This document shows, one piece after another, positions 3,001 through 17,008 of a DNA stretch of 28,789 nucleotides. The notes below the pieces were generated by a model. It was not told where the DNA came from. It saw nothing but the letters and a program-made list of their open reading frames with translations, and searched no databases. This stretch comes from Leptospirales bacterium (GTDB taxonomy: Bacteria > Spirochaetota > Leptospiria > Turneriellales > JAOUFE01). Location: positions 1 to 28,789 of the forward strand of contig JBEQLE010000058.1 in NCBI GenBank assembly GCA_040326155.1, in the 5' to 3' direction. A program made the position numbers and the translations under genes. Positions within the stretch are counted from its first letter, which is position 1. Each line of letters starts with the position of its first letter.

Positions 3001-6000
3001 CATAATACATACTTACATTGTTTATCCCCGTACTTTGTATAATTTGCCCCAACTTGGCGTCATAAAGCGATGTACTTATTTGCTTCAGGGCGTTTGTATG
3101 TGTTTTCGGGTGGGTGTTAAACGTACCTTCATATGTAATTGTACTTTTGTTATAGAACTGTGGCTTTTTTCCGGCGGCATCCCAAGACGCACCGCTTAGA
3201 GAGAGCAGGTTACCGTAAGAGTCGTACGCAGAAAATTGCGTACCCAACCATACTTTATTTGTATTGTCGTACGTTCTCGAATAGACTACATTTCGTTTGG
3301 TGTCATATTTGTGTTGTCTGTGATTTAAAACCTGTGTGCATGTTTGATTTGAACAATGCTGAATATCAACAGGGTAACCCAACATCCAATTTGTGGCGTC
3401 GTTATTGTAAGATGTTTTAGTATATACATCATCAGAGGGGTCTTTTATGTTTCCCAGGTCGCCGAGTAAGATGATGTTGCCAAAATTGTCAAAAGAGAGG
3501 GTTTTCGCGACTGTATAAGTAGCGTCGCTGTTGGGGCTTGTGTGCAGAGTACTTTGTCGAGCTATTTGAACCAGATTAGAACTTATATTCGGAAGGGGCT
3601 TTTTGGTATTATATGTGTAATTCGTTTGACCTATTAATTTACCGTCGCTCACGCGAAACATCTGCATATAGTCGAGCTCCCCATTAAATGGAAAAGCCTG
3701 GCGAAAATAAGAAACATGTTTTAGACCGGGAGTGGAGGAAGATTGATTGGCCTGAAGGTCAATTTCTGTGGAGCGGCGAAACCCAAGGAACCCGTACCCC
3801 ATTTTGTCGACAATGGCACCAGCATAAGTATATTCATACCGATAGCCTTTTGTATCGGCGCTTCCGTTTTTAATCGTACGGCTTTTTACCACAAAAATCG
3901 GGGTATTGTATTGGCGACACCGCCCCTTGCACCATTTTTCATCGTCCGGGTTAAACTCGCTTTCAGGGAGAGTCGAATAAACCGAGTCGGCCTTATCTTT
4001 TGTTGTACACTCGCCCACAACATCGGTTTTTGACGCCGAAATCGATTGATAGCAAAGATCAGTTTTTTTACCCAAACCATTGGTTACAGATGTAAGCAAG
4101 CTCTGGTTGGTTGGCGCAACCGCGATGATGGCATAATTAGAGCCTAACCCAAACAGGTCCGATACGCCGTCGCCTGTCACATCGGCCGGATACCTGGGAT
4201 TTTTTTGCAGATAACCCATGTCATTGTAGACAAAATCTTTGGTGATCGGTTTTATGATTGTATCGTCAGAAAGAAAGGAACTACCAGTATTGATTGCAAA
4301 ATGGACTTTGCTATTCCCAAAACCGATTAGATCCGCTCTGCCGTCTGCATTGATATCGGCAAAGGTACGCATTGTACCGCCTGGCTCTCCCGAGTCGTTC
4401 CACCCGCCATTGTTATAGGTGAATTTATTTTCAAGCCATACGGTTAATTCGCTGAAAGAGGATCCGGTAGAAAGCGAAACATATACGTCATCATTACCAA
4501 ACAATACCAGATCGGCTAACTGATCTCCGTTTAAATCGGTTAAAAATATGGGATTATGACCCGCGATTAAAGATTCGGGCTTATTCTTTAAAACCAGGTT
4601 GTCATTCCAAACGACAACTTGATTGAAGCCATCTCCATTAGACAGACCTACATAGACTTTTCTTACGCTATGCTCTTTTTTAATGCCGACAACATCAATC
4701 AGGTTATCGCCGTTGACATCACCCAACATAGGTGGATTTCCGTTTTCTTTGCTAAAACCGGCTTGCTTCGTAAAAAATGCCTTGAGCTTGGTTATCTTTC
4801 GAAATGATTTACCTGTTGATAATCCGACTCTGGTGTAACTATTGCCAAAGCCAATGATATCGGAACGGCCGTCACCATTGACATCGGCCAGAGTACGCAT
4901 ATCATCAGTGCTCCACCCATTTGGCTCATTAGTTAAGAAATTTGCCCAGTTAGTTTGTTTGTCAAAACCAGATCCGTTGGAAATGGCAACATGCAGATTG
5001 TTTGTACCCAAACCGATAATGTCATAAAGCCCGTCGCCGTTAACATCGCCGATGGCCCTCGGATTGTTTTCACTGTTAAAACCGGAATTACAACTGAAAT
5101 ATTTGCTTTTATCAGAACATCCTCCGTTTTTATATTTATCTCCGTGCAGACAATAGACCTGTGGATCTGAAATAGGGAGACCGCTTGATAGTGCGAACTC
5201 GGTATAATTATTCCCAAAACCTATTAAGTCGAGACGCCCATCGCCGTTAAAATCTCCCATGGTTCGCGCCTGGCAAGAGTTAGACCAGCCTTTATTCTCT
5301 GAGAAAAAAGTCGTCCATTTTGCCGTTTTTTGAAATGACAGTGGTCCGTTTTTTATATCGCTATATGTAAACTCGGTTGGCGCAAAAACATTACCGTCAG
5401 AGCCCTGAAGTTGCATAGAACTTAGATAGTTTAGTTGTGCATTTGGATTAAAGTTTATAGCAAATAAATATTTTGCAACAGTTGAAAATCCTGCGGTTCC
5501 CGAGTTCTTTGAACAAGAGGTTATCGGAGTATTTGCAAGACATGACTCTATTGCGTTAATGATTTTAGAATGGACTACTTTTGCGCCACCTTGATAGCGA
5601 AGTTTTGATTGTTTTGCATCTACAAATGTCAACTCTATAGCGCGTTGAGGGGCTTTGCCGGTGGTCAAATTGCCGCCGTATAAAACACTCAGGGGGACAT
5701 ATTCGCCTGTTTGTTCATTTTCGGTATAGTGGTAGTCTATATAATTTTGATTTAAAGTTGCATGTCGGCTGACGGTCCATACTCGTACGGATCCTGCGGA
5801 AATATTGGTTACATTTGAGTCGGCAACAGCTTCTATTCTGGAGTCGGCAGTTGCGCCATAGGTCATTGTGCTTCCGTGTTTTAGAGTCGCCGTAAAATAA
5901 CACGGTCCCGACCCGCAGGTTTTTGAGCCGTCTTTATAAAAAGCCTGAAAACGGACCCACGACTCTCTTTCAGTATGATAAACTGTACCCGAATCACCAT

Positions 6001-6403
6001 ATTTTCCGCTAACGGGAATCAGCAGTTTACCGTCTATGCAAAAGCGATCGCCGGCGCCATAGGTAACCGGGTAACGGTTTGCGTCTCTGGTGACGGAGCA
6101 ACGGGTAATGGCCGAAAAGCCAGACAGGCTCCAACCGTGGCCGAATAAACCGCCGCTGCTCTGGCTGTTATAAGAGAGAATTAATTTCGGGTCCAACCCG
6201 TTAATACCGGGAGGGGCGTTTAACGAAACCGAATAACCGGCCCCGCCATGTTGATTTACACTTACGCTTCCGGGAATCGTCCCTGCAACAGTTGAGCCGC
6301 CTGATAGGCCTTGCGCTAGACTCGTTTTGTGAATACCGATGACCGCGGAGGTTACCAAAAGGCCTCTTAAAATCCATTTGTTATACTTTTTAATCATTTT
6401 CAT
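2..6403 (-). CDS. Giant secreted RHS/YD-repeat toxin (TcB-TcC fusion-like: signal peptide, SpvB-like N-domain, FG-GAP propeller, YD repeats, RHS core, C-terminal toxin region); 3' end lies beyond the window
   Basis: ATG at 6403 has an AAAGGA SD. I translated segments: MKMIKKYNKWILRGLLVTSAVIGIHKTSLA-QG (signal peptide); SVNQHGGAGYSVSLNAPPGINGLDPKLILSYNSQ..GHGWSLSG (SpvB-like); seven GDxNGDGxxD repeats; YD repeats; and TGLYYFNARFYDPSIGQFIQSD...YAGNNPITYSDPSGH (RHS core). The start and the left-edge segments share one frame. Absence from the ORF track is consistent with no stop codon in the window. Confidence 0.95.
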   Translation of the reverse strand, partial: MKMIKKYNKWILRGLLVTSAVIGIHKTSLAQGLSGGSTVAGTIPGSVSVNQHGGAGYSVSLNAPPGINGLDPKLILSYNSQSSGGLFGHGWSLSGFSAITRCSVTRDANRYPVTYGAGDRFCIDGKLLIPVSGKYGDSGTVYHTERESWVRFQAFYKDGSKTCGSGPCYFTATLKHGSTMTYGATADSRIEAVADSNVTNISAGSVRVWTVSRHATLNQNYIDYHYTENEQTGEYVPLSVLYGGNLTTGKAPQRAIELTFVDAKQSKLRYQGGAKVVHSKIINAIESCLANTPITSCSKNSGTAGFSTVAKYLFAINFNPNAQLNYLSSMQLQGSDGNVFAPTEFTYSDIKNGPLSFQKTAKWTTFFSENKGWSNSCQARTMGDFNGDGRLDLIGFGNNYTEFALSSGLPISDPQVYCLHGDKYKNGGCSDKSKYFSCNSGFNSENNPRAIGDVNGDGLYDIIGLGTNNLHVAISNGSGFDKQTNWANFLTNEPNGWSTDDMRTLADVNGDGRSDIIGFGNSYTRVGLSTGKSFRKITKLKAFFTKQAGFSKENGNPPMLGDVNGDNLIDVVGIKKEHSVRKVYVGLSNGDGFNQVVVWNDNLVLKNKPESLIAGHNPIFLTDLNGDQLADLVLFGNDDVYVSLSTGSSFSELTVWLENKFTYNNGGWNDSGEPGGTMRTFADINADGRADLIGFGNSKVHFAINTGSSFLSDDTIIKPITKDFVYNDMGYLQKNPRYPADVTGDGVSDLFGLGSNYAIIAVAPTNQSLLTSVTNGLGKKTDLCYQSISASKTDVVGECTTKDKADSVYSTLPESEFNPDDEKWCKGRCRQYNTPIFVVKSRTIKNGSADTKGYRYEYTYAGAIVDKMGYGFLGFRRSTEIDLQANQSSSTPGLKHVSYFRQAFPFNGELDYMQMFRVSDGKLIGQTNYTYNTKKPLPNISSNLVQIARQSTLHTSPNSDATYTVAKTLSFDNFGNIILLGDLGNIKDPSDDVYTKTSYNNDATNWMLGYPVDIQHCSNQTCTQVLNHRQHKYDTKRNVVYSRTYDNTNKVWLGTQFSAYDSYGNLLSLSGASWDAAGKKPQFYNKSTITYEGTFNTHPKTHTNALKQISTSLYDAKLGQIIQSTGINNVSMYYAYDSFGRPVSVYGPDSSGDKTLLASHTYETATNGMSHKIISTIDWSNNTKWTVNSYDALGRQYKKEAEADDGTIALVTCYQSVTQVSQSSHPYYQSSSDDTCESNSAKYWIKYKYDTLHRPSKITHADGAITDITYDIKTLNSYNRDYVERTDSHGLPEQKTITSYLDPENKVLKRVFPQQNGVSAEQAVVHNYDHLGRTVQTISPGGATSNFYYDSLSRVISTNNSDSGKTTVSYYKENGLIKSTTDSTGSTHSFDTYDAILRPTKESYVQNGDTRTIQYTYDVNNQENCYAKGRLSSVSDSNGLTHQYCYDALAKTRTAELGVDSKKFTIAANYDPMSRLTAFTFPDGTIMKRSYNIEGPLNLVELCQKGGSSCKDYAQWKNFSATGHPENLEYQNGVETTYSYNESTGHLSTLNAEQTSSNPLINKTYSWNTLGLLTKIQDNINDEYSMSYTLDAAGSLKQANIGASGSGLTLDYTYNTSGALTQKGDTSYTQYKGQKLIISETNGETTTYGYYANANLKTKTAGNTSWQYIYNGQDRLSSVQKTVSGSTTTTGSYVYDYKGSLVKRTDGEGVISYYISKNYDIMVEPNEKNAVYTKTLTSLSGVVAALSTSAKFTSQTLSLDNQGSQSANNLLAYVHTFLNINWGALFFIVVCAALVFFTLYVWLNSILKRNQIQSRFWQYKTVFTAFTPLVMAAIVLQLIAPISLHAQGLTGNGYPIAGKTLFFHSDHTGGTTLVTDLKGKEVTRIAYLPFGEMYQKLSFGPDDFRAKFAGQELNKDTGLYYFNARFYDPSIGQFIQSDNRVLGGPDIMATSYNRFAYAGNNPITYSDPSGHSFGSFMKGLGIGIAISLAIMTGVGAVAGDAMAAGAVGAYWGAESANHNMNPLKWNWKSGKTYGGLAAGFAVAEVGATLAVVAPELLPEEAGAFAVFMTGLGATAVDGFAQNSTFAALGGANSKEAAFAGLEGAAIGAGFQIAGAGVGAAASRVFSRTAATAAD
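4137..5261 (-). repeat. Seven FG-GAP/VCBS-like coding repeats (probable 7-bladed beta-propeller) within the RHS gene
   Basis: GDFNGDGRLDLIGFGNN, GDVNGDGLYDIIGLGTN, ADVNGDGRSDIIGFGNS, GDVNGDNLIDVVGIKK, TDLNGDQLADLVLFGND, ADINADGRADLIGFGNS and ADVTGDGVSDLFGLGSN, spaced about 55-70 codons apart. Confidence 0.85.
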
Positions 6404-6470: not shown

Positions 6471-6785
6471 TTAGTTGTCTGCTACTTCAGCAATAACCAA
6501 GACTTCAACGTTAGCCTGGTACTTGTTGGTGTAACCGTGCTCGTCTGTCATCCCAGCCGTCATATTAAAAGTAACTTGCCCTCCATTTATTGATACATTC
6601 GAAAGCTGTACGGAAGCTTGTTGTATCCATGCGTTGGTGGCGTCATCATAGCCGACCAACCAGCTTTTAATGCAGCATTCTGCACTGGTTACGTTCGTTG
6701 GAAACGTAACCGAACCTTGATGAGGAGTAGGAACTCCTAATTCACCGCTAAAAACGACTGTTGTTGTTTCAAATTTTATACTCAT
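6471..6785 (-). CDS. Small all-beta hypothetical protein (possibly H-type lectin-like), 104 aa
   Basis: Alternating beta-strand pattern, no signal peptide, C-terminal VEVLVIAEV strand; upstream promoter and downstream hairpin support a real gene; the fold is an inference. Confidence 0.75.
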   Translation of the reverse strand: MSIKFETTTVVFSGELGVPTPHQGSVTFPTNVTSAECCIKSWLVGYDDATNAWIQQASVQLSNVSINGGQVTFNMTAGMTDEHGYTNKYQANVEVLVIAEVADN

Positions 6786-7440: not shown

Positions 7441-8286
7441 TTAACGAACTGCGTGTTTATTTACACCAAGTTGTTTTTCGGTGTAACCCAGAGCCATACC
7501 TACCAACTGTGAAAGGTGAATAATCGGCATTTTACCGGTCTTATTTGCGGCTTTCAAACCCATGTCTTGGTAGCTGTCTAAAGCTGTGTGGCACAATGGG
7601 CAGGGAGTAACGATAAAGTCAGCTGTGGAATCGATGGCATCGGTAAGAACGTTACCGACAATTTTTACGGATTCTTTTTCGGCTACTATTAAAGTATGAA
7701 ACCCGCAACACTTGTTTTGCGATTCAAAATCGACAACGGTGCCGCCTAGAGTTTTAATGAGGTCGTGCAGGGAAGATGGTTGATCGGGGTCATCCTTGCC
7801 GAAAAGTTCGGAGGGGCGTAAAATATGGCAACCGTAAAAAGGCGCAACTCTCACTCCAGTCAAAGGGTTTTTTACCAGGCTGGCCAGTTTTTCGAGACCA
7901 ACGTCCTCGTTAATTACCCAGAGAAGGTGTTTTACTTCGGAGGTTCCTTTGTATTCCAGACCCTCTTCTTTTAGAGCTTCGTTTACCATCTCTTTTTTTT
8001 CGGGCTGGGTATCGAGAATATGTTTTGCGTGGCGAAGTCCCAACAGACAGGTATTGCAAGCCGAAACCATATCGAGGCCAAGTTTTTCAGCTAAAGCGAT
8101 GTTACGACCGTTAACGGCCAAGGCATGATCGGGTGAAACATATTCCAGGTTGCTTCCACCACAACAGGTTCCTTCTGTTAAAGGAACAAGCTCTATATCA
8201 AGATCATTTTTCCAGAGATTAATCGACTGATCGATCTCTTTCGTCATAGATTCGTTTACACAGCTTAGATAATATGCGTATTTCAT
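7441..8286 (-). CDS. sdhE: HdrB-like CCG-domain subunit of type E succinate dehydrogenase/fumarate reductase (SdhE, also annotated SdhC/HdrB family)
   Basis: Two CCG domains (YYLSC..CCGG..CNTC; FYGC..CCGF..CPLC), no TM helices, directly downstream of sdhAB. Confidence 0.9.
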   Translation of the reverse strand: MKYAYYLSCVNESMTKEIDQSINLWKNDLDIELVPLTEGTCCGGSNLEYVSPDHALAVNGRNIALAEKLGLDMVSACNTCLLGLRHAKHILDTQPEKKEMVNEALKEEGLEYKGTSEVKHLLWVINEDVGLEKLASLVKNPLTGVRVAPFYGCHILRPSELFGKDDPDQPSSLHDLIKTLGGTVVDFESQNKCCGFHTLIVAEKESVKIVGNVLTDAIDSTADFIVTPCPLCHTALDSYQDMGLKAANKTGKMPIIHLSQLVGMALGYTEKQLGVNKHAVR

Positions 8287-8304
8287 AATATTCCTTCGTC
8301 CCTT

Positions 8305-9285
8305 TTACTTCTTTTTAAGTTCGGAAACTTTCTTGTACATTCTCCGGACGTTTTTTATTCCGGGTATCTTGTGCGCGAACAGTCCGGGCATTCTGCCTTT
8401 CATCATCATTTTAATTCCCATGGGTATTAAAGAGATGGAGCGTAGCAAACCTTTGGTTTTTACGGGTAACATACCCTCGTTCAGACGCCCTTTAGATAAA
8501 ATATCTTGTTCGAAAGCAACACCGTGGCGGTAACCTTCGGTATTTTTCATGTTGCGTTGTATGGCATCATTTCGAACACCAGAAATTGCGTCCATTATGG
8601 GAATATTCTTTACACAAACCTCAACACATTTATAGCAATGCGTACAATCCCACATGCCATGGTCGGCGTTTAGAATATTCAAACGAGCTACCTGCTGGGT
8701 ATCTCTCTCGTCTTTGTTCATACGAAAAGATTTTAATAATACAAGCGGCGAAATAAACTCGGGGCTTACTTCCATAATAGTACACTCTGAGAAACAGGCT
8801 GCGCATAAAATACAGTCTGTCGCCTGGTTAATGACTTGAAAATCTTTTTCAGAAATGACACATTCTGCTTTTCCGAGATTTTCTTTCGATATATCGGGAG
8901 TGACCCAGGATTTATATTTCTTTAGTTTTTCTACGACGGGGTTATAATCTACAACCATATCGCGCATGACATTTAAATTGCTTAAAGGGTCGATGGTAAT
9001 GACGTTCGGCTCTTTGCATCTTTCAAGCTCATCCCAGACCTGCGTGGTACAGGCAAGTTTCGAGACACCATTGACTTTAACGGCACAAGAACCGCAAATT
9101 CCAGCCTGGCAGTAAAATCGATAGCTTAACTTCGGGTCAATGTGGTCTTTAATATAGTTAATGGCCCGTAAAATGGTAATACCTTTTTCTACGGTAATCT
9201 TATACTCATCATAGTACGATTTGTCGTCTACTTCAGGATTAAAACGAAATACACGGAAATAAATATCTTTTTTATCTTCGCTCAT
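8305..9285 (-). CDS. sdhB: Succinate dehydrogenase/fumarate reductase iron-sulfur subunit, type E, with C-terminal extension
   Basis: [2Fe-2S] motif CQAGICGSC..C; two complete 4-Cys motifs CILCAACFSEC and CTHCYKCVEVC; HdrC-like GRLNE tail. Confidence 0.95.
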   Translation of the reverse strand: MSEDKKDIYFRVFRFNPEVDDKSYYDEYKITVEKGITILRAINYIKDHIDPKLSYRFYCQAGICGSCAVKVNGVSKLACTTQVWDELERCKEPNVITIDPLSNLNVMRDMVVDYNPVVEKLKKYKSWVTPDISKENLGKAECVISEKDFQVINQATDCILCAACFSECTIMEVSPEFISPLVLLKSFRMNKDERDTQQVARLNILNADHGMWDCTHCYKCVEVCVKNIPIMDAISGVRNDAIQRNMKNTEGYRHGVAFEQDILSKGRLNEGMLPVKTKGLLRSISLIPMGIKMMMKGRMPGLFAHKIPGIKNVRRMYKKVSELKKK

Positions 9286-9286
9286 A

Positions 9287-10990
9287 TTAGTATTTCCTTT
9301 CCTGAAGTTCGTATTTACCCATTGTTACAGGTTTATACGACAGATCAACATCACCAGATTCGTTCATATGGGCAATAGTATGTTTATGCCATTTAGCATC
9401 GTCACGAGTGGTAAAGTCTTCTCGACTGTGTGAACCACGACTCTCTTCTCTGGCCAATGCTCCTTTAGCAACACAGAGTCCTAGATCGAGCATGTTTTTA
9501 AGTTCCAATACCTGAGTCAGGTTGGTGTTATAGACAGCTGAGGTATCGAAAACTCGAACTTTTTTAAAACGTTCTCTGAGTTCTTGTACGTCAGCTACAC
9601 ATTTTTCAAGTTTGCTTTTAACTCGATAAATACCGGCATTCTTGCCAAGAGTTTCACCAAGTTGTTCACGAATTTCTCCCCACCTTTCGGTATGGTCAGA
9701 ATTATGATAGCTTTTAATTTCAGCTTCGGCTTTTTCTACCGCAGAAGATGATAGAGGTTTCGGGTTTAGACTCGGAGCATTCTCAGCTGCGTGTTTACCA
9801 CCCACTTTTCCGAACACAAGAACTTCGAGTAGAGAGTTACCGCCGAGACGATTGGCGCCATGTACCGAAAGACAAGCACACTCGCCTATTCCATAAATAC
9901 CTTTTATACCGGTTTCGCAATCGTTGTTTACGTCAATTCCGCCCATGGAGTAATGCGCCGTAGGTCGAATTGGAATTGGTTCATTTATCGGGTCAACGCC
10001 TTCAAAATAAATGGCCAGCTCTCGAATCTGAGGAAGTCTCGAAAGAATAAGATCTTTACCAAGATGTCGTAAATCGAGTTGCATGTATTGGCCAGCTTCA
10101 GAATCGAAACCACGCCCTTCGTTAATTTCAATTTCAATAGAACGAGATACAAGGTCGCGAGGACCAAGTTCCATTTTTTCGGGAGCGTATGTCGACATAA
10201 ATCGCTCGCCCTTGTTATTTAAAAGATACCCGCCTTCTCCGCGAGCTCCTTCTGATATTAATAATCCACTTTTTCGTAGTCCAGTCGGATGAAATTGTAC
10301 AAATTCCATATCTTCGAGAGGTAAACCAGCTCGTAAAGCATTGGCAGGACCATCCCCGTTATTTCCGGCTGCATTGGAAGATTTTTGCCAATACATTTTT
10401 GCGTAGCCGCCGGTGGCAATAATTACCGAACGTGAAGGCAAAGCAAAAACTTTACCGGTCATCATATCCATAACGACCGCGCCCTGGGCCTGTTGTCCGT
10501 CATGTTCAATAGATAATAAAAAATGTTCGCTGAAAAATTTAACCCCTTTTTTAAGACATTGCTCAAAAAGGGTATGTAGAAGAGTATGACCTGTTTTATC
10601 GGCGCAATAACAACACCTGAATTTTTGAGCGCCGCCAAAAGGTCTTTGCGCTATTTTACCGTCGTCGGTTCGTGAAAAAGGAGCGCCAAGGTTTTCCATT
10701 TCTCGAACAACAGTCGGAGCCATTTCGCATAGAATGGTCGCCGCGTCCTGGTCGGCCAGGTAGTCACTGCCTTTTACGGTATCAAAAGTATGTAAATCGA
10801 TTGTGTCGTCTTTATGCCTGTTGGCTAAAGCCGCATTTACCCCACCCTGGGCCGCTGAAGTATGAGACCTGCTTGGGTATACTTTGGATACTACCGCTAT
10901 TTTTAAATTTGGATTTGTATTAAGAGCTTCCATTGCGGCGTACATTCCGCCTCCGCCAGCTCCTATGATTACTATATCATACGGTTGCAT
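9287..10990 (-). CDS. sdhA: Succinate dehydrogenase/fumarate reductase flavoprotein subunit (cytoplasmic, no Tat signal)
   Basis: GAGGGG, RSHTSAAQGG (covalent FAD His), QFHPTG, SEGARGEGG, PRDLVSR, HYSMGG, HGANRLGGNSL, RxESRGSHxR. Confidence 0.97.
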   Translation of the reverse strand: MQPYDIVIIGAGGGGMYAAMEALNTNPNLKIAVVSKVYPSRSHTSAAQGGVNAALANRHKDDTIDLHTFDTVKGSDYLADQDAATILCEMAPTVVREMENLGAPFSRTDDGKIAQRPFGGAQKFRCCYCADKTGHTLLHTLFEQCLKKGVKFFSEHFLLSIEHDGQQAQGAVVMDMMTGKVFALPSRSVIIATGGYAKMYWQKSSNAAGNNGDGPANALRAGLPLEDMEFVQFHPTGLRKSGLLISEGARGEGGYLLNNKGERFMSTYAPEKMELGPRDLVSRSIEIEINEGRGFDSEAGQYMQLDLRHLGKDLILSRLPQIRELAIYFEGVDPINEPIPIRPTAHYSMGGIDVNNDCETGIKGIYGIGECACLSVHGANRLGGNSLLEVLVFGKVGGKHAAENAPSLNPKPLSSSAVEKAEAEIKSYHNSDHTERWGEIREQLGETLGKNAGIYRVKSKLEKCVADVQELRERFKKVRVFDTSAVYNTNLTQVLELKNMLDLGLCVAKGALAREESRGSHSREDFTTRDDAKWHKHTIAHMNESGDVDLSYKPVTMGKYELQERKY

Positions 10991-10999
10991 ACGCCCTTC

Positions 11000-11443
11000 C
11001 TATAATGCTACGTCGTCAGAACCATCGAGATTTTCAACTGCGTGTAAAATATCGCTCTGACTTAAAATTCCAACTAACTCACCATTTTTCACAACCGGTA
11101 TTCGGCGAATTCCGACCTTTTTCATTAATCGAATCGCATATTTAATATGAATATTTTGATCGATTGTTACACAAGGTTTGCTCATAATCGTATGAACCTG
11201 AGTATTCCAGGGGTCTTTGTGGACATCTTCACCAGGGTCGATGACCTTTTCGAGGATATCTTTTTCAGTAATGATGCCATAAGCGTCACCTTCACTGCGA
11301 GGTTCAACGATCAAGCTAGTGATGTCATGCTCTTTCAATATACTAATCGCTTCTGCTACAGTTTGCGAACCTTTTACTTTCGTAACATCCCTGGTCATCA
11401 ATGATGATACGGGAAGAGTTCTTAGTTTTATTAATTGTTCCAT
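11000..11443 (-). CDS. Stand-alone CBS-pair (Bateman module) protein
   Basis: [39 protein letters not shown]. Confidence 0.93.
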
Positions 11444-11485
11444 GCTATATCCTTGATCGCCTCTAACCTTAATATGTCAAACGTT

Positions 11486-14206
11486 TTAATTTATAAACTT
11501 AACTTCGGATGCGGGAGTTCGACAATCCATGTCGGTTCCCCGGTTCAAATGATCGGCAACCTCGGCTGAAGTACCCACCATTCGTCCAAATAAGAACATA
11601 GTAAAAACGATATCTTGCATCTCTTGTTCTGCAATCTCTTTTGCTTTGTACTGTTTCCAGAAAAGCTCCAGCGAAACTGTCGCAATTACAGCGTCAATAT
11701 TTACACAAAACACATTGGCTGTTGCGCCGGCTTTATGCAACTCCACAACAAGATTGTGGTAGAATTCCAGAAATGGATTTACCAGACCGTTCTTACCAAA
11801 CAGTTCTCGCACATACTCTTCTCGAGGGTCGATGTTAACCGATTTTCCTTTAAAGACAGGATGGTTCGTACATGGAATTTTTTTATACTGCAAATTCCCT
11901 GCGGCTTTTTCCGCCTTTTTGTAGACGACATATTCACTCGATACTTTGGCTGCAATTTTTGCCAGTTCAGGCTCCAGCTCTTTAATATCTTTTCCATAAG
12001 GATCAATACCAGAGAGTTTATCAATTAGGAACGCTACAGCTTCAAACCCATTTCCACCATGCGCAATACCGGTATTCATCATGAAACCTGCGTAGGCAGT
12101 TGAAAGATTATTTTTAGCACTGACAGTCTCTTTTGCCCCTTTGGCGCTCAGAGTTCCCGGGCCGTTTGTAACAGTCAGGTTAAACAGTGAGTTTAAGGCA
12201 AAAATTTCTTTGCCTTCAGGATCTCGGTTAAATAAAATTCGAAAACAAGATTCGGTGTAGTCTGTATCGAGCAGACTTAAATTTTCGAGCGTCTGCAAGT
12301 TCTGCCAGAATACATTAGACTCATGACCGATTACAGAGTTTGCAACGATAATGCCATTTAAGGCCAAATAAACGGGAAGGTTTACAGCGTCATTGCGAGA
12401 AATTCGCCTATCGGTAAGTGGTTTCCACGATACGCTTAAAAGCACAGCAGAAATTAAAAGCCACGCAGGATTCACCTTGCCTGGGTTTTTCTCCAGGTAA
12501 GCTACAACAAAGCGTGTAAATATGGTTTCTAGGGAGTGCTTTTTCAGGTTTTGCAACATGAATTCATACACTTTGGTATCCACATCGGTTCCGGAGGACT
12601 CGGGCAGTGCCAATTCTAATTTGGCATCAATCAGCTTGTCGTCAATATCGGTTATAGAACCAATGTCCTGGTAAAAGGCGTCAATTAAAGCTGACGTTAT
12701 TCCTTTGAATGATTTATGCATTTTGTTATCACCAGAGATTAAAACAGAAGCTCCGATGTATGCATTCGGGGTAGCGCCGTTTGCTCTGGCTTTGGTAGAG
12801 TAGTCGATGTACTCGGTTCCGGCAGAGACAAACCAGTTTAAAACCGGGTTTACCATAAACAGTTGATTGTCGGTCGGAAACTCTCTGGTTACGGCAAATA
12901 TATTAGTAGCGGCAAATGGCTTCTGGACCAGATCTAATAAAGAGACGCCGTGTATTTCGGTTACATCGGTTTTCTTGTTCATCTGGGTTGCGCCGGAGGC
13001 ATTTCTCAGGGTTTGTCGCAAATACTGAGCGCCGACTTGTTTGTTGGCATTTTCAATCTCTTTATCGTATGGAGCAATTGCAGTTACCGCGTCTATAGAG
13101 AGCTCTTTCGGTAGTTTTAGATCTTGAGAATTGACGAACCATGGTTTTAAACTAAGGTCACCTACAGGTTCAAAATCGGGTTTTTCGCCTAAAAGCTTCA
13201 TCACTTCACCAAGCGCTTCAGGTATTTGCTGAATGGTTTGTACCCTCACCCCTTTTTTAGAGACAACCGGTTTATCCGGGTCATATTCTGGTACGCCAAA
13301 ATAGGCGTCAAAAATTTCTTCTTTTGCTTCTGCATCGTCACCAACACCGGCAAGCGCGCCCGCATGTCCAACCGCCCGGGTAAGATGCTTTTTCCATCTT
13401 CCGGTTACAACGGCAATAATGGGTTTCGTATATTTAAATAGACCTTCATTAATCCAGTCGAGGGCTTGTTGTTCATAATAACCGCCGGGTTCGACATAGA
13501 CAATAACAGCTTTTGTTCTCGGGTCATTTTCAGCCGCGTAAAGAAACTCTGGTAAACCAAAGTGAATGTAGATATCTTTACCGGAACTTACAATTGTTGA
13601 AGTACCAAAACCTGCTGTTTTAATATATTCTGAAATAGTCGTACTAAAATTACCAGAATTCGAGTGAAGAGCTACAGAACCTTTGACAAGACTCTCTTGC
13701 GGTTTATCGCCGCCCAGCGCCCCGCCAATGCGAATCTCTTCCCAGGAGTTGGCCACACCTAAAGAGTTGGCCCCTACTACATCGACTCCGGCTTTCTGGC
13801 AATTATACCGAATATACCTTGAATCGCGAACCGACATTTTCTCGGTAACGATCACTACTTCTTTTAAATTTTCGTTCCCCGAAATCAGTTCTGAAACAGC
13901 GTGAGAGACAGCGGCAGGAGGTAGATAAATTACCCCGGTATCGAACTCAATACCCGAATCTACGATCTCTTTTACACTGCCAAAAACGGGTATGTTACCC
14001 AGTTTGGTTTCGAGGTGTTGTCCACCGCGTCCATACTGAACGCCCGCGACCACGTTGCCGCCGCTGTACTGGTGAGATACCGGTGTAACCTGAGAGCTTT
14101 CGCCGCCCAGAATATTCATAATTACTACACGATGTTTTTTACTTGCTAAGTCTTCGAGAGATTTAGCGCCTACAAAATAAGGAAAGGGATTTTCGTTGTT
14201 GCCCAT
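11486..14206 (-). CDS. aclA: ATP citrate lyase alpha subunit, long (type II-like) form, 906 aa
   Basis: N-terminal SucD-like CoA-binding and ligase domains with phospho-His motif VGHAGA; C-terminal citrate synthase/citryl-CoA lyase fold (NGPGTLSA, HGGNG, NHPVFK..DPR, NIDAVIA, RMVG..AEVADH). Confidence 0.88.
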   Translation of the reverse strand: MGNNENPFPYFVGAKSLEDLASKKHRVVIMNILGGESSQVTPVSHQYSGGNVVAGVQYGRGGQHLETKLGNIPVFGSVKEIVDSGIEFDTGVIYLPPAAVSHAVSELISGNENLKEVVIVTEKMSVRDSRYIRYNCQKAGVDVVGANSLGVANSWEEIRIGGALGGDKPQESLVKGSVALHSNSGNFSTTISEYIKTAGFGTSTIVSSGKDIYIHFGLPEFLYAAENDPRTKAVIVYVEPGGYYEQQALDWINEGLFKYTKPIIAVVTGRWKKHLTRAVGHAGALAGVGDDAEAKEEIFDAYFGVPEYDPDKPVVSKKGVRVQTIQQIPEALGEVMKLLGEKPDFEPVGDLSLKPWFVNSQDLKLPKELSIDAVTAIAPYDKEIENANKQVGAQYLRQTLRNASGATQMNKKTDVTEIHGVSLLDLVQKPFAATNIFAVTREFPTDNQLFMVNPVLNWFVSAGTEYIDYSTKARANGATPNAYIGASVLISGDNKMHKSFKGITSALIDAFYQDIGSITDIDDKLIDAKLELALPESSGTDVDTKVYEFMLQNLKKHSLETIFTRFVVAYLEKNPGKVNPAWLLISAVLLSVSWKPLTDRRISRNDAVNLPVYLALNGIIVANSVIGHESNVFWQNLQTLENLSLLDTDYTESCFRILFNRDPEGKEIFALNSLFNLTVTNGPGTLSAKGAKETVSAKNNLSTAYAGFMMNTGIAHGGNGFEAVAFLIDKLSGIDPYGKDIKELEPELAKIAAKVSSEYVVYKKAEKAAGNLQYKKIPCTNHPVFKGKSVNIDPREEYVRELFGKNGLVNPFLEFYHNLVVELHKAGATANVFCVNIDAVIATVSLELFWKQYKAKEIAEQEMQDIVFTMFLFGRMVGTSAEVADHLNRGTDMDCRTPASEVKFIN

Positions 14207-14230
14207 GTTTTACTCCAATTTTCCCCGGTA

Positions 14231-15481
14231 TCAACCGGCTTGATTATTCTTTTTATTCTCAATTATCCAATCATCCAGTTTTATGGTGTGCTCTAAAACA
14301 CCCACCATACTGCTGTCATAACCAAAAAATTGATAGGGAACCTTCATGTTGTCAAGTGTGTCGCGGCCATATACCATGCCTCGAATTAGATTCGGACCAC
14401 CTCGACCCACAACCACTTGAACATTCGGGTTCAAATGAATATGCTCTTTCAAAGAGTCAAATATACCTTTAAAAGTTACAAAGATATCGGTGTTATTCGC
14501 CTTACCGCCAATTAGTAAAACAATGTTGGTATCTTTTAACCAGTGTCTAAACGAGATATCAGCTATCATTTTCATCTTCTCGTACGGAGGGTTTCCACCA
14601 AAGTCCGATGAGATAATCGCCCGGTTGCTCAACACTTCTGTGGCTGCGCTGTTTGCCCCACCACCAAAGATAAACGGTAGTATACTTCCTTCCGGGTTAA
14701 GCTCGGTCACATCAGACTGACCCTGGTAGGTTCTGAGCAGGTTAATTTCCGCTTCAAAATCGGTTATATCGGTTGAAAAGATCTCCTCGGGAAAACCGAG
14801 ACGTTTCCACGCCGGATTATCCTGATCAAAAGAGGCTTTAATATCACAGGCTACGGGAACAAACCGTTTGCCGAATTTACCCATACGAATGGGATTTAAC
14901 TCCAGCGTAACCAGTCCGAATGAATCATACGCTTCCCAGAGTTTGGGCAGAAATTGTACCAGCGGTGAAATATACTGCTTGGGACAATTGAGTTCCGTCA
15001 GTGCGTTCGTAATATGAAAAGATTTGATTCCCGTAATCGGGTTAAATACAATTTCTCTTTTTTTATCGGCAGCTACATCTTCTACGTCAACGCCACCCTC
15101 GATAATCAGGCTCATGACTGGTTGTCTATGAACCGTAGAAGCCGTAATGCTCACGTAAATTTCAGCGTCTGAAGGTATAAAGCCTTCAAAAGTAACACCG
15201 TTCGCCTGAACAACAGCATTGCCTTGCGAGTGCTTGGCAAAGTATAAATCTTTTTTAGCTTCCACTGCTTCGTGAAGCGTTTTGGCAACTCTTACCAATC
15301 CTGCTTTTCCTTTTTTACCAATACCCCCGGTAAAAAAAGGTTTCACCACACATTTTCCACCATGATCAGCCATCAGTTTGGCGATATCTTCTTTGGACGC
15401 TTCTTCGGTTAAAGACGGAGCAACAGGAAATTCCACCATCTCTAATATTTTAGTACCATATTTTAAGCCTGTCAATTGCAT
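14231..15481 (-). CDS. aclB: ATP citrate lyase beta subunit (ATP-grasp + citrate-binding domain), 416 aa
   Basis: Start re-called to MQLTG (ATG 15481, GAGG SD); VVKP..GIGKKGKAGLV, LELNP, GGGANSA, DFGGNP, GGKANNTD, GRGGPN. Confidence 0.88.
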   Translation of the reverse strand: MQLTGLKYGTKILEMVEFPVAPSLTEEASKEDIAKLMADHGGKCVVKPFFTGGIGKKGKAGLVRVAKTLHEAVEAKKDLYFAKHSQGNAVVQANGVTFEGFIPSDAEIYVSITASTVHRQPVMSLIIEGGVDVEDVAADKKREIVFNPITGIKSFHITNALTELNCPKQYISPLVQFLPKLWEAYDSFGLVTLELNPIRMGKFGKRFVPVACDIKASFDQDNPAWKRLGFPEEIFSTDITDFEAEINLLRTYQGQSDVTELNPEGSILPFIFGGGANSAATEVLSNRAIISSDFGGNPPYEKMKMIADISFRHWLKDTNIVLLIGGKANNTDIFVTFKGIFDSLKEHIHLNPNVQVVVGRGGPNLIRGMVYGRDTLDNMKVPYQFFGYDSSMVGVLEHTIKLDDWIIENKKNNQAG

Positions 15482-15873: not shown

Positions 15874-16119
15874 GTGAAACGGGTAGCCCATTTAATTAGA
15901 ATACGACATGTCAGCATAGTATTATTGATTTTTTTCAACTTTTCTTGTGATAAAAAATACAGTAAAACATTTAAATATGAATCTGGTACGGTATCAAAAT
16001 ACGAAGGACAGGTAGATAATAAAAAATATCCATTGATCAAAAAGCCTGCTTCCCCTGGAATATTGATCAATGGAACTTCAACAAAGGTAAAACATATAAG
16101 TACTCCTTATATCATGTAA
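15874..16119 (+). CDS. Putative lipoprotein N-terminal part (probably the 5' half of a frameshifted gene)
   Basis: Basic N-terminus, hydrophobic stretch and lipobox-like FFNFS-C; its stop overlaps the next ATG (TAATG). Confidence 0.55.
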   Translation: MKRVAHLIRIRHVSIVLLIFFNFSCDKKYSKTFKYESGTVSKYEGQVDNKKYPLIKKPASPGILINGTSTKVKHISTPYIM

Positions 16120-16805
16120 TGGAAAGTAAAAGTACCATAGAAGGAATGCTCAAAGATACTCCCATAATTTCGAATGATAAATTCACCCTTTCTCGCAATG
16201 TAATCATAAAAAGCAATAAGAATCACACAGCAGATTTCACTTTTCAAAAAACAACTGGCGAAGTAATTGTAAAATATGATATAAGTTCAAAGACAAGAAA
16301 GACCACACTTAAATTTAACGAATTTGTTATGGAAGGTGTACATGAAAACAGTACATGGAGTAATCCAATAGAAAACACGGAAAGTATGTGTTACTATTTT
16401 GCTTTTGCTTTGCCAGATAAACCCGCTGAGCATTTGGAGTTCTACGAAAGAGAAATTGAGGTTCCTTGGAATGTAAATAACCTTAAATTAAAGATTAAAG
16501 GGAAAATGACTACAACTTTAACAGGTTATGTAGAAATTGATAACAGAGCGCATGCCAAACTTCAATCCATTATTAAAATCAATGAAGTTGAGATTCCAGA
16601 CGATGCAGAAGACAAAATGGGCTGCTCCGTAAATGGGACTTCTGTTTTCTATTTTGATATTTACAATAGAACTTTCCACTCGGGCACCATGGCCGTTCAC
16701 CTGGATTGTTATTCTAAAGCCATGAAAATAGAATCAGATGGCAACGAGAGTCTAGATATAAGAATGGAATATGATCACTTGTTCACTTTTGATCGCTTGG
16801 AATAA
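16119..16805 (+). CDS. Hypothetical beta-rich protein (probably the 3' part of the lipoprotein)
   Basis: 228-aa ORF in AT-rich DNA; its frame stays open upstream to 16023 (..QWNFNKGKTYKYSLYHV-MESK). Confidence 0.7.
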   Translation: MESKSTIEGMLKDTPIISNDKFTLSRNVIIKSNKNHTADFTFQKTTGEVIVKYDISSKTRKTTLKFNEFVMEGVHENSTWSNPIENTESMCYYFAFALPDKPAEHLEFYEREIEVPWNVNNLKLKIKGKMTTTLTGYVEIDNRAHAKLQSIIKINEVEIPDDAEDKMGCSVNGTSVFYFDIYNRTFHSGTMAVHLDCYSKAMKIESDGNESLDIRMEYDHLFTFDRLE

Positions 16806-16806
16806 T

Positions 16807-16980
16807 AACCGTTTATAAGGAATACAGGAAAATAGAGTGCTGTGTTGCTTTTTAAGAACTTGTCTAATTATGAATTGTTATAAAACTCTAAATATATTTG
16901 TTTCTTAAAATCATGTAAATCCTGTCTGGTATCTCTTTTTCTTTTCCTGCCTTCCTGCCATTCCTGCCTTCCTTGTTAAA
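16807..16980. repeat. Nested repeat cluster: family A forward (16807-16832), family B right arm (16891-16927), family A inverted (16942-16980)
   Basis: GTTTATAAGGAATACAGGAAAA ... AATATATTTGTTTCTTAAAATCATGTAAATCCTGTCT ... TTTTCCTGCCTTCCTGCCATTCCTGCCTTCCTTGTTAAA. Confidence 0.85.
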
Positions 16981-17008
16981 TTCTTTCTCCTTCATAATAA
17001 ACATAGAG

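What the first reader, a model, noticed from the sequence alone, without database searches (positions are those of the whole stretch)
7441..15481. Compact aclB-aclA-CBS-sdhABE operon: a reverse-TCA-type module in an apparent Leptospirales spirochaete
Seen: six co-oriented genes with gaps of only 24, 42, 9, 1 and 18 nt. Known: ATP citrate lyase and fumarate reductase are two of the three key enzymes that reverse the TCA cycle. A ~900-aa AclA is the 'type II' form associated with Magnetococcus and gammaproteobacterial tubeworm symbionts. Inference: the bactofilin-M23-neuB block looks like Leptospirales, a lineage known as fatty-acid-oxidising heterotrophs. If both hold, this points to rTCA carbon fixation or mixotrophy in a lineage where I know of no description. 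The pairing with a type E HdrB-anchored reductase is also a layout I do not recognise.
Basis: partly seen in the sequence, partly recalled or inferred. Interest (0 to 1): 0.85.

Follow-up and report, generated by a model that had tools for sequence, protein, structure and literature searches.

The report
Reverse-Krebs gene cassette in a spirochaete
A free-living relative of Leptospira carries a borrowed six-gene cassette, a citrate-splitting enzyme plus a second fumarate/succinate enzyme, that could let its Krebs cycle run backwards to build biomass from CO2; the same cassette is already known from Geobacter.

Summary
Six co-oriented minus-strand genes, aclB-aclA-CBS-sdhA-sdhB-sdhE, lie at 7441-15481 with the stated gaps. 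AclBA is the CCS-derived "type II" ATP-citrate lyase. SdhABE is a cytoplasm-facing type E complex II. The contig's composition matches the rest of the genome, which is a Leptospira-class spirochaete.

The cassette is an add-on. The genome also has citrate synthase, 2-oxoglutarate dehydrogenase E1 and a type B sdhCAB. It also has KorAB, PFOR, PPDK, PEP carboxylase, RnfC and a group 3b hydrogenase, so every rTCA step has a candidate. No RuBisCO or acetyl-CoA synthase was found.

Among 61 related genomes, the ACL and the type E enzyme occur in the same 6 and in none of the other 55.

The layout is not new. The same six-gene order occurs in Geobacter and was drawn for G. metallireducens in 2009. 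Nitrospina gracilis, an rTCA autotroph, pairs the same enzyme types. The ACL family is widespread (at least 565 species genomes), including heterotrophic metal reducers, so autotrophy is not shown.

The new points are the lineage and a CBS gene that always precedes this sdhA.

The parts
14231..15481 (-). [quoted passage not shown] The ORF extends to a GTG at 15568; the likely start is the ATG at 15481.
   Evidence: PF08442 55.4 bits (cut-off 29.5) and PF16114 Citrate_bind 54.5 bits (cut-off 26.8); best solved relative is the citryl-CoA synthetase large subunit 6hxq_B, E 1.6e-32, against type I AclB 6hxj_A, E 1.6e-14. Searches support the start.
11486..14206 (-). aclA, the 906-aa large subunit. 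It consists of a CcsB/SucD-like CoA-binding part with the phospho-histidine loop (about residues 20-300), a linker, a degenerate copy of the citryl-CoA-lyase core (about 436-630) and the catalytic copy (about 650-890).
   Evidence: NF004230 residues 22-301 and NF004869 citryl-CoA lyase residues 649-898; 6hxq_A E 7.7e-38; invariant H281 (GHAGA), H716 (HGGNG), H782 (NHPVF) and D838. AF2 model pLDDT 74.7, residues 405-890 helical. Foldseek hits to SCS-alpha, CCS and ACL chains; hhalign of the middle against the C-terminus gives probability 95.8%, E 7.9e-9.
11000..11443 (-). Stand-alone CBS-pair protein (147 aa). It is the first gene of a conserved CBS-sdhA-sdhB-sdhE unit and is the presumed ligand-sensing partner of that enzyme (inferred).
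   Evidence: PF00571, two stretches, 98.6 bits. It lies directly upstream of the type E sdhA in 12 of 12 evaluable loci; invariant family motif K-V-I-D-P-G ... W-N-T.
9287..10990 (-). sdhA, the flavoprotein of a type E succinate:quinone oxidoreductase / fumarate reductase. It has no signal peptide, so it faces the cytoplasm.
   Evidence: TIGR01812 803.5 bits (cut-off 567.3); the MFR_Fp_SdhA profile aligns only from its position 48; the N-terminus is MQPYDIVIIGAGGGG, and the SRSHTSAAQGG histidine motif is present.
8305..9285 (-). sdhB, the iron-sulfur subunit (326 aa), with a C-x2-C-x2-C-x3-C pattern at the third cluster site.
   Evidence: TIGR00384 207.2 bits (cut-off 88); sequence inspected, showing CQAGICGSC...C, CILCAACFSEC and CTHCYKCVEVC. 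That the extra cysteine means a second [4Fe-4S] cluster follows PMC3578206.
7441..8286 (-). sdhE, an HdrB-like subunit with two CCG cysteine-rich domains, which replaces the haem-b membrane anchor.
   Evidence: PF02754 CCG, two stretches, 87.3 bits. NF042965 258.4 bits (below its 500 cut-off) and TIGR03288 204 bits; two CCG motifs and 10 cysteines in the expected pattern.

Best explanation
The six genes are a laterally shared cassette that makes the TCA cycle reversible. It joins two units.

[quoted passage not shown] AclB binds ATP and citrate. The AclA N-terminal part carries the phospho-histidine and binds CoA to make citryl-CoA. The C-terminal lyase copy splits it into acetyl-CoA and oxaloacetate.

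(ii) CBS-SdhA-SdhB-SdhE is a cytoplasm-facing, haem-free type E complex II with a dedicated CBS-pair protein that probably senses an adenosine-type ligand.

In this Leptospira-class spirochaete the cassette is added to an ordinary oxidative cycle (citrate synthase, 2-oxoglutarate dehydrogenase, type B sdhCAB). Together with KorAB, PFOR, PPDK, PEP carboxylase, Rnf and a group 3b hydrogenase, it supplies a second, direction-specific enzyme at each irreversible step.

The most likely use is to run the cycle reductively under low oxygen or anoxia, for CO2 assimilation or mixotrophy. In that use ACL cleaves citrate and the type E enzyme reduces fumarate.

Shown here: gene content, domain make-up, conserved catalytic residues, co-occurrence and conservation of the operon. 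Inferred: substrate, direction in vivo, the role of the CBS protein, and autotrophy.
For: Anatomy and catalytic residues.

Co-occurrence: full-length AclA, type E SdhA above 798 bits and SdhE are found in the same 6 of 61 class relatives (G000-G003, G009, G013) and in 0 of the other 55. This holds even where the two units lie on different contigs.

Add-on status: all 61 genomes have a roughly 640-aa type B SdhA. All 34 order-level genomes match the citrate synthase model (28 of them, including the six ACL holders, above its cut-off). G000 has OGDH E1 at 947 bits.

Rest of the pathway in G000:
- KorA 580.9 bits on TIGR03710 (cut-off 482.75), plus KorB, and PFOR at 1787 bits
- PPDK and sdhCAB
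- PEP carboxylase, aconitase, Iso_dh family
- FumC, Mdh/Ldh family, SucCD
- RnfC 511.7 bits, group 3b hydrogenase operon

No RuBisCO and no CdhC were found; the genome is 94.66% complete.

Precedents:
- The same six-gene order occurs in 4 Geobacter loci.
- G. metallireducens carries Gmet_0305-0310 (PMC2700814). A model containing ACL predicted growth on formate plus Fe(III), and that growth was confirmed (PMC3998878).
- Nitrospina gracilis, an rTCA autotroph, has a low-similarity ACL, type B and type E SQRs and a four-subunit cytoplasmic NiFe hydrogenase (PMC3578206).
- Type II ACL is the proposed citrate-cleaving enzyme of Magnetococcus and of tubeworm symbionts (PMC6783814; PMC3522073).

Having both gltA and ACL would waste ATP unless each serves one direction (inference).
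Against: Nothing here shows direction or expression.
- The ACL family occurs in at least 565 species genomes. These include Geothrix fermentans, other Geothrix, Anaeromyxobacter and Ignavibacteria, and Desulfobacter and Desulfosarcina. Several of these I recall as heterotrophs.
- 27 of 42 other ACL-bearing genomes gave no SdhE match.
- ACL is close to reversible, with a reaction energy of -8 kJ/mol (PMC13147460, Table 1). Desulfobacter postgatei is cited as using an ACL oxidatively (reference list of PMC9560492).
- The Nitrospina authors argued that type E enzymes favour succinate oxidation, and they took the type B enzyme for the fumarate reductase.
- KorA is above cut-off in 29 of 61 relatives, most of them without ACL. 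Its 2-oxoglutarate equivalog score is below cut-off (301 against 579).
- G000 has only the cytoplasmic 3b hydrogenase. No NiFe hydrogenase was found in G001-G003, and RnfC was not found in G002 or G003.
- The genome has three haem-copper oxidase homologues, yet KOR and PFOR are usually oxygen-sensitive.
- Kin are not independent: the 6-of-61 pattern may rest on a single gain.
Confidence: 0.5

Rival explanations
1. An oxidative, energy-saving cycle of the Desulfobacter type. During anaerobic respiration, for example with extracellular electron acceptors, ACL runs backwards as an ATP-yielding citrate synthase, KorAB oxidises 2-oxoglutarate to ferredoxin, and the type E enzyme oxidises succinate to a low-potential quinone.
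For: ACL is near equilibrium. The Desulfobacter postgatei precedent is cited. Homologues at 54-55% identity occur in Desulfobacter and Desulfosarcina, and others in Geothrix, Geobacter and Anaeromyxobacter. The Nitrospina authors held that type E SQRs preferentially oxidise succinate. An earlier, unchecked note reports a porin-cytochrome conduit in this genome. G001-G003 gave no OGDH E1 match but do have KorA.
Against: All six ACL-bearing spirochaete genomes keep a high-scoring type I citrate synthase and a type B sdhCAB-type SdhA. An oxidative cycle therefore already has both steps, so the added enzymes are redundant unless they serve the other direction or a special energy regime. The cassette is fused in Geobacter, and G. 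metallireducens grew on formate without acetate.
Confidence: 0.25
2. Only a reductive branch or redox valve, with no full cycle. ACL cleaves citrate (taken up or made internally) to feed oxaloacetate into malate, then fumarate, then succinate. The type E enzyme uses fumarate as an internal electron sink under anoxia, and ACL also supplies acetyl-CoA.
For: The G. metallireducens authors read the second complex as a sign of fumarate respiration. A DctP-family solute-binding protein lies 8 kb away at 23185-24177. FumC and an Mdh-family gene are present.
Against: There is no transporter in the operon. The DctP gene is on the other strand, separated by unrelated genes. KorAB, PFOR, Rnf and PEP carboxylase are all present, so the cycle need not stop at succinate.
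Confidence: 0.12
3. The AclBA-like enzyme acts on a different acyl-CoA or acid (not citrate), and the neighbouring complex acts on a related dicarboxylate. In that case the module has nothing to do with the TCA cycle's direction.
For: No member of this subfamily has been purified, as far as my searches show. All scores against curated ACL, CCS and CCL models are below their cut-offs. The extra degenerate lyase copy is unexplained.
Against: The Citrate_bind domain is above its cut-off. The citrate-synthase-type His/His/Asp and the phospho-histidine are invariant in 16 of 16 aligned homologues. Citrate cleavage is reported in Magnetococcus, which has only this type (PMC6783814). SdhA scores 803.5 bits on the SdhA/FrdA model.
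Confidence: 0.05

Closest known systems
Geobacter metallireducens cluster Gmet_0304-0310 (Aklujkar et al. 2009, PMC2700814; ACL reaction in model iAF987, PMC3998878)
   Same: The order aclB-aclA-CBS-sdhA-sdhB-sdhE was seen here in 4 Geobacter loci, including G. hydrogenophilus DSM 13691. Identities to the window are AclA 56-57%, SdhA 66-67%, SdhE 62-66% and CBS 51-54%. [quoted passage not shown]
   Different: The host phylum differs. In G. metallireducens a PEP carboxylase gene sits next to the cluster; here PEP carboxylase is on another contig. I did not fetch the G. metallireducens DNA itself, so the match rests on other Geobacter genomes and on the paper's text.
Type II ATP-citrate lyase of Magnetococcus marinus (Mmc1_3638/3639) and of Riftia/Tevnia/Lamellibrachia symbionts (Hugler and Sievert 2011, known to me only through PMC3522073, PMC6783814 and PMC5459899)
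   Same: Two genes, with a large subunit that fuses ccsB and ccl. The peptides encoded by the type II primers match invariant motifs here. The enzyme is closer to CCS than to type I ACL.
   Different: No reference sequence from those organisms was available to place in a tree, so the subclade relationship is untested. The symbionts pair the enzyme with tfrAB and korABCD, not with CBS-sdhABE and korAB.
Nitrospina gracilis central metabolism (Lucker et al. 2013, PMC3578206)
   Same: A low-similarity ACL, a type B SQR, a type E SQR and a four-subunit cytoplasmic NiFe hydrogenase in one aerobic organism. Nitrospinota AclA is 55% identical to the window's, and those genomes carry sdhABE.
   Different: Nitrospinota SdhA is only 49% identical. 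No CBS gene precedes it in the 2 of 2 loci examined, and it is not adjacent to aclBA. Nitrospina is an obligate autotroph, whereas this genome keeps OGDH and gltA.
Citryl-CoA synthetase plus citryl-CoA lyase of Hydrogenobacter thermophilus (PDB 6hxq)
   Same: These are the best solved relatives of both subunits (E 7.7e-38 and 1.6e-32), with the same chemistry split over the same domains.
   Different: Here the small CCS subunit and the lyase are one polypeptide, and the lyase core is present twice, the first copy without the catalytic residues.
Type E succinate:quinone oxidoreductases (Sulfolobus/Acidianus SdhABEF), Campylobacterota MFR and methanogen TfrAB
   Same: An HdrB-like CCG subunit replaces the haem-b anchor, and the third iron-sulfur site has an extra cysteine.
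   Different: No SdhF was found. There is no TAT signal, so it is not MFR. SdhB and the CCG protein are separate genes, so it is not TfrB. All three equivalog scores are below their cut-offs. A CBS-pair gene is attached, which none of the texts I read describe.

Membership tests
Type II ATP-citrate lyase | Two adjacent genes, with a large subunit that fuses a CcsB/SucD-like part to a citryl-CoA-lyase-like part | tested here: met
   NF004230 covers residues 22-301 and NF004869 covers residues 649-898 in one 906-aa protein. The definition is taken from PMC5459899.
Type II ATP-citrate lyase | Closer to citryl-CoA synthetase than to type I ACL | tested here: met
   6hxq_A E 7.7e-38 against 6hxj_B E 2e-16; 6hxq_B E 1.6e-32 against 6hxj_A E 1.6e-14.
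Type II ATP-citrate lyase | Carries the sites targeted by the published type II aclA primers | tested here: met
   the primers of PMC3522073 translate to VAKEEWF and NGFEAIA; the window has AEAKEEIF (292-299) and NGFEAVA (719-725). K295, E296, F299, N719, G720, E722 and A723 are invariant or nearly so in A1.
Type II ATP-citrate lyase | Catalytic phospho-histidine loop and citrate-synthase-type His/His/Asp in the lyase part | tested here: met
   H281 in GHAGA, H716, H782 and D838 are invariant in 16 of 16 sequences. Which residue does what is recalled from citrate synthase and ACLY work; it was not computed here.
Type II ATP-citrate lyase | Same clade as the Magnetococcus and Endoriftia reference sequences | not tested
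   No reference sequence from those organisms could be obtained with the tools. The tree holds only relatives found from the window.
Type II ATP-citrate lyase | ATP- and CoA-dependent cleavage of citrate | not testable with these tools
   This needs an enzyme assay.
Type I ATP-citrate lyase (Chlorobium AclAB, ACLY) | Passes the curated ACL domain model; large subunit of about 600 aa | tested here: not met
   PF24948 Citrate_synth_N scores 54.8 bits against a cut-off of 83. AclA is 906 aa. Foldseek aligns it to 6hxj_B only at rmsd 24.6 and 16% identity.
Type E succinate:quinone oxidoreductase | An HdrB-like subunit with two CCG domains in place of a haem-b anchor | tested here: met
   PF02754 has two stretches, and two CCG motifs are seen in the sequence. 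There is no cytochrome b gene in the operon, whereas the genome's other complex has one (TIGR02046).
Type E succinate:quinone oxidoreductase | Extra cysteine at the third iron-sulfur site of SdhB | tested here: met
   CTHCYKCVEVC was read. Its meaning follows PMC3578206.
Type E succinate:quinone oxidoreductase | A small SdhF subunit | tested here: not met
   The next ORF (6471-6785) lies 655 nt away, has no Pfam match and gave no tblastn hit in 5 related loci. Bacterial type E enzymes are described with three subunits.
8-methylmenaquinol:fumarate reductase (MFR, Campylobacterota) | Periplasmic enzyme with a TAT signal on SdhA; passes the equivalog cut-offs | tested here: not met
   Scores are 645.2 against 1100, 205.6 against 600 and 258.4 against 500. 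The SdhA profile aligns only from its position 48 to residue 4, and the N-terminus begins at the FAD fold.
Thiol:fumarate reductase TfrAB | SdhB-like and HdrB-like parts fused in one TfrB; passes the cut-offs | tested here: not met
   The two parts are separate genes here. TfrA scores 461.2 against 718 and TfrB scores 165 against 385.
Reductive TCA cycle (pathway) | ACL (or CCS/CCL), a 2-oxoglutarate:ferredoxin oxidoreductase and a fumarate reductase in one genome | tested here: inconclusive
   ACL is present. KorAB passes only the subfamily model, and its 2-oxoglutarate equivalog scores 301 against 579. The direction of the type E enzyme is unknown.
Reductive TCA cycle (pathway) | Growth on, or net fixation of, CO2 | not testable with these tools
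   No RNA or DNA run was listed for the operon. The organism is uncultured.

The most novel reading that the evidence does not exclude
A whole branch of Leptospira-class spirochaetes (two families here, plus Leptospiraceae- and Leptospirales-labelled MAGs) is facultatively autotrophic through a reductive TCA cycle. It would be driven by H2 via the group 3b hydrogenase and Rnf, or by electrons taken up through the porin-cytochrome conduit that another note reports. That would be the first rTCA carbon fixation in the phylum, where only acetogenic Wood-Ljungdahl fixation appeared in the papers I read. The CBS-pair protein would act as an energy-charge switch that sets the direction of the type E fumarate reductase.
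Probability: 0.3. Interest if true: 0.75.

Novelty: new member of a known kind. Interest (0 to 1): 0.5.

Why it matters
If the cassette works reductively, some free-living relatives of Leptospira are not only fatty-acid-oxidising heterotrophs. They could also assimilate CO2 in sediments and aquifers.

This ACL form scores below the cut-off of the curated type I ACL domain model. Several surveys I read counted rTCA by the type I markers K15230/K15231. Such surveys may therefore miss this form and under-count rTCA potential in many phyla; I did not test the KO models themselves.

The strict pairing with a CBS-tagged type E complex II across three phyla gives a concrete, testable handle on a long-debated question: which complex II serves the reductive direction.

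The cassette's presence in genetically tractable Geobacter makes the test feasible.

Tried and rejected
- Complex prediction of SdhA with the CBS protein: no verdict, so nothing can be said about binding.
- Public sequencing runs for the operon: none was listed, so there are no expression data.
- Promoter and terminator scan: 22 promoter-like sites against 24.0 expected, which is uninformative. The 11-of-12 match at 15475-15447 lies inside aclB and is taken as chance.
- ORF 6471-6785 as SdhF: rejected (no family match, not conserved).
- PEP carboxylase adjacent as in G. metallireducens: not here; it is on contig C98.
- A chimeric contig: not supported. The tetranucleotide correlation of C125 with the genome mean is 0.990 (median of 107 contigs 0.989) and its GC is 0.405 against 0.396. 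The operon itself is at 0.933, about the 10th percentile of random 8-kb pieces, with GC 0.427. RlmN on the same contig has its best matches in families f1 and f7.
- Recent transfer within the family: not needed. The vertically inherited type B SdhA is 76-79% identical to the same relatives, similar to AclA at 74-75% and type E SdhA at 78-81%.
- Long stop-free frames of 1355-1364 aa in the two Anaeromyxobacter-type loci and one Krumholzibacteriia locus looked like AclB-AclA fusions. For the Anaeromyxobacteraceae locus the two genes are in different frames by the coordinates, so I dropped the idea; the other two loci were not checked.
- Low-scoring SdhE-like hits in Ignavibacteria are not next to sdhAB in the 2 of 2 loci examined, so they were not counted as type E enzymes.
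- Foldseek on the full-length model aligns to ACL chains only at rmsd 24-26, because the domains are placed differently. The C-terminal half was not folded alone.
- The supplement list of PMC6315080 was fetched but the files were not read. Its AclA tree (Fig. S1) may bear on the type II placement.
- (Desulfobacter, aclA) gave survey papers only, and I opened only one of them (PMC10645885).

Full report
**Observation**

The window is one whole contig (C125, 28,789 bases) of a 4.26-Mb, 171-contig genome rated 94.66% complete and 1.71% contaminated. One search lists six consecutive minus-strand ORFs between 7441 and 15568. That ATG is residue 30 of the longest ORF, and relatives align from residues 21-29.

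Pfam and NCBIfam give these assignments:
- AclB: ATP-grasp plus Citrate_bind.
- AclA (906 aa): succinyl-CoA-ligase-alpha-like at residues 22-301 and citryl-CoA-lyase-like at 649-898.
- A CBS pair.
- SdhA: TIGR01812 803.5 bits, cut-off 567.3.
- SdhB: TIGR00384 207.2 bits, cut-off 88.
- SdhE: an HdrB-like protein with two CCG domains.

**Is the contig sound, and whose is it?**

C125 has an ordinary tetranucleotide profile (correlation 0.990 with the genome mean; median of 107 large contigs 0.989) and ordinary GC (0.405 against 0.396). The operon alone lies near the 10th percentile of random 8-kb pieces, with GC 0.427, so it is slightly atypical but not an outlier. RlmN on the same contig finds its best matches in families f1 and f7 of the host's order.

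On lineage:
- The closest AclA homologues are labelled Spirochaetia, Leptospiraceae or Leptospirales.
- A protein beside the OGDH gene hits the Leptospira families LIC11274 and OmpL37, both below cut-off.
- The genome shares its class, but not its order, with a 27-genome family that carries operator-withheld stretches. I take that family to be Leptospira (inference).

So the host is a spirochaete of the Leptospira class. Membership of the order Leptospirales in the strict sense is not shown.

**What the ACL is**

The nearest solved structures are the two subunits of Hydrogenobacter citryl-CoA synthetase (6hxq_A E 7.7e-38; 6hxq_B E 1.6e-32). They are far ahead of Chlorobium type I ACL (2e-16 and 1.6e-14). 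The type I domain model PF24948 is below its cut-off.

In an alignment of 16 homologues, the phospho-histidine (H281 in GHAGA) and a citrate-synthase-type H716, H782 and D838 are invariant.

The primers published for the "type II" aclA of tubeworm symbionts (PMC3522073, passages) translate to VAKEEWF and NGFEAIA. The window has AEAKEEIF and NGFEAVA at the matching conserved sites.

The AlphaFold model (pLDDT 74.7) shows three parts: a SucD-like part, a disordered linker (349-402) and a confident all-helical part (about 405-890). Foldseek finds SCS-alpha, CCS and ACL chains.

A profile comparison shows that residues about 436-630 are a degenerate copy of the lyase core at about 655-883 (probability 95.8%, E 7.9e-9; control against the N-terminal part 0.3%). 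The degenerate copy lacks the catalytic residues.

I could not obtain Magnetococcus or Endoriftia sequences, so the clade relationship to those references is untested.

**What the second unit is**

- SdhA starts directly at the FAD fold, with no TAT signal. The MFR profile aligns only from its position 48.
- SdhB has C-x2-C-x2-C-x3-C at the third cluster site. This is the type E mark described in PMC3578206.
- SdhE has two CCG motifs.
- The MFR and Tfr equivalog scores are all below cut-off, so this is a cytoplasm-facing type E complex II and is neither MFR nor TfrAB.
- No SdhF was found.

The CBS gene belongs to this unit, not to ACL. It directly precedes the type E sdhA in all 6 spirochaete genomes, including the three where aclBA is on another contig. 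It does the same in 4 of 4 Geobacter loci, in a Lambdaproteobacteria genome and in a Leptospiraceae MAG. One further locus starts at sdhA and cannot be judged. In 2 of 2 Nitrospinota loci there is no CBS gene, and SdhA there is only 49% identical. The CBS proteins share an invariant K-V-I-D-P-G ... W-N-T insert.

**Distribution among relatives**

Among 61 genomes of the class (G000 plus 60 relatives), the following were found in the same six genomes and in none of the other 55:
- full-length AclA,
- type E SdhA above 798 bits,
- SdhE.

The six are G000-G003 (family f1, 4 of 4) and G009 and G013 (family f7, 2 of 2). Kin are not independent, so this may reflect one gain.

Every one of the 61 genomes also has a roughly 640-aa type B SdhA. 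All 34 order-level genomes match the citrate synthase model; 28 of them, including all six ACL holders, score above its cut-off. The cassette is therefore an addition, not a replacement.

Identity of G000 to its family relatives is similar for the vertically inherited type B SdhA (76-79%), AclA (74-75%) and type E SdhA (78-81%). This fits inheritance within the family since its origin.

**Rest of the pathway in G000**

| Function | Evidence |
|---|---|
| KorAB-type 2-oxoacid:acceptor oxidoreductase | alpha 580.9 bits, cut-off 482.75; the 2-oxoglutarate equivalog is not passed |
| PFOR | 1787 bits |
| SucCD | present |
| Type I citrate synthase | 727.5 bits |
| OGDH E1 | 947-1109 bits |
| sdhCAB with cytochrome b558, next to PPDK | present |
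| PEP carboxylase | present |
| Complete pyruvate carboxylase | none found |
| Aconitase | present |
| Iso_dh family genes | two |
| FumC | present |
| Mdh/Ldh family gene | present |
| RnfC | 511.7 bits |
| Group 3b NAD(P)-linked NiFe hydrogenase operon | present |
| Haem-copper oxidase homologues | three |
| RuBisCO, CdhC | none found |

Each irreversible step thus has two enzymes: gltA and ACL, OGDH and KorAB, type B and type E complex II.

Results that weaken a simple autotrophy story:
- KorA is above cut-off in 29 of 61 relatives, most without ACL.
- G001-G003 gave no OGDH E1 match, no NiFe hydrogenase and, for G002 and G003, no RnfC.
- Only the f7 genomes and family f2 have a group 1 uptake hydrogenase.

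**Distribution beyond the spirochaetes**

The best 80 span Spirochaetia and Leptospirales MAGs (61-74% identity), Geobacter (56-57%), a Lambdaproteobacteria MAG (59%), Nitrospinota (55%), and Ignavibacteria, Geothrix, Holophagaceae, KSB1, Calditrichaeota, Anaeromyxobacter and others (48-52%).

aclB precedes aclA in 76 of the 80 loci. Of the other four, one is cut at its end and three have little or no sequence upstream of aclA. The full six-gene order occurs in 4 of 80, all Geobacter.

I built a tree of 46 rows: the window, 2 G-handle loci and 43 of the 80 named loci. The remaining 37 were left out to keep the tree small, and 3 G-handle loci were left out as duplicates. In this tree the 9 spirochaete rows form one group (SH-aLRT 96), next to Desulfuromonadales (88), inside a 19-row group (100).

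In 42 other ACL-bearing genomes, a high-scoring SdhE (236 bits or more) occurs in 7, plus one partial hit. These are two Leptospira-type MAGs, two Geobacter, three Nitrospinota-type genomes (one of them the partial hit) and the Lambdaproteobacteria MAG. Seven more genomes have only low-scoring HdrB-like hits, and 27 have none. The pairing therefore holds for one part of the family, not all of it.

**What is already known**

- The G. metallireducens genome paper (PMC2700814, passages) describes a laterally acquired second succinate dehydrogenase/fumarate reductase (Gmet_0308-0310). [quoted passage not shown] This is the same layout.
- The later metabolic model calls the enzyme ATP-citrate lyase, and growth on formate plus Fe(III) was confirmed (PMC3998878, passages).
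- Adding a type I ACL to G. sulfurreducens was enough for autotrophic growth (PMC6053493, passages).
- Nitrospina gracilis has a low-similarity ACL, type B and type E SQRs and a four-subunit cytoplasmic hydrogenase. Its authors, however, took type B for the fumarate reductase and type E for the dehydrogenase (PMC3578206, passages).
- Tubeworm symbionts pair type II ACL with tfrAB and korABCD (PMC6315080, section 5).

I found no paper that links spirochaetes to ACL or rTCA. The searches were: 4 papers; 0 papers; 1 paper, listing only; 16 papers, 12 listed; 14 papers. I read passages of five of those papers. They report Wood-Ljungdahl genes or fermentation for spirochaetes.

**Verdict**

The most likely function is a cassette that lets an otherwise oxidative TCA cycle run reductively (confidence 0.5). 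An ATP-conserving oxidative use is the main rival (0.25).

The cassette itself is a known kind. New here are its presence and apparent vertical maintenance in a Leptospira-class lineage, and the recognition that the CBS gene is part of the type E unit across three phyla. Direction, expression and autotrophy remain untested.

Noticed in passing
window 2-6403 (-): A protein of more than 2133 aa that runs off the contig end. It has SpvB, FG-GAP and RHS-repeat domains, so it looks like an Rhs/Tc-type polymorphic toxin. The first 1 kb of the window has 52.6% GC against about 40% elsewhere.
   Followed up: partly
window 16000-19000; 17009-17523 (-): An AT-rich stretch (28-34% GC) directly upstream of the operon holds a YefM/YoeB toxin-antitoxin pair and small ORFs with no family match. 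It may be a remnant of a mobile element next to the acquired cassette.
   Followed up: partly
window 12260-13009 (-), AclA residues about 436-630: The large ACL subunit holds a degenerate second copy of its lyase core, without the catalytic His/His/Asp (hhalign probability 95.8%). It may mimic the partner chain of a lyase dimer.
   Followed up: yes
window 11000-11443 (-) and alignment A2: The CBS-pair proteins of this unit share an invariant insert, K-V-I-D-P-G ... W-N-T, between the two CBS motifs, in 12 of 12 sequences from three phyla. The ligand and the partner are unknown.
   Followed up: partly
G009:C34:16636-29641: In a family f7 relative, KorA, RnfC and a 1545-aa fused 2-oxoacid oxidoreductase-like ORF lie within 13 kb on one contig. 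This hints at a ferredoxin-linked carboxylation cluster.
   Followed up: no
G000:C85:7783-8568 (L024:4784-5569): The gene next to korAB matches the Geobacter/Pelobacter 'GPMC system' MBL-fold hydrolase model (184.7 bits, cut-off 360). It is another Geobacter-like gene in this genome.
   Followed up: no
L039:4978-6666: The type E sdhA of one Geobacter MAG has an in-frame stop. Whether this is an assembly error or a broken gene was not examined.
   Followed up: no
window 24208-25272 (-): RlmN is only 41-43% identical to the same-family relatives, while metabolic enzymes are 74-87% identical. The family is deep, and the TCA enzymes are under much tighter constraint.
   Followed up: partly
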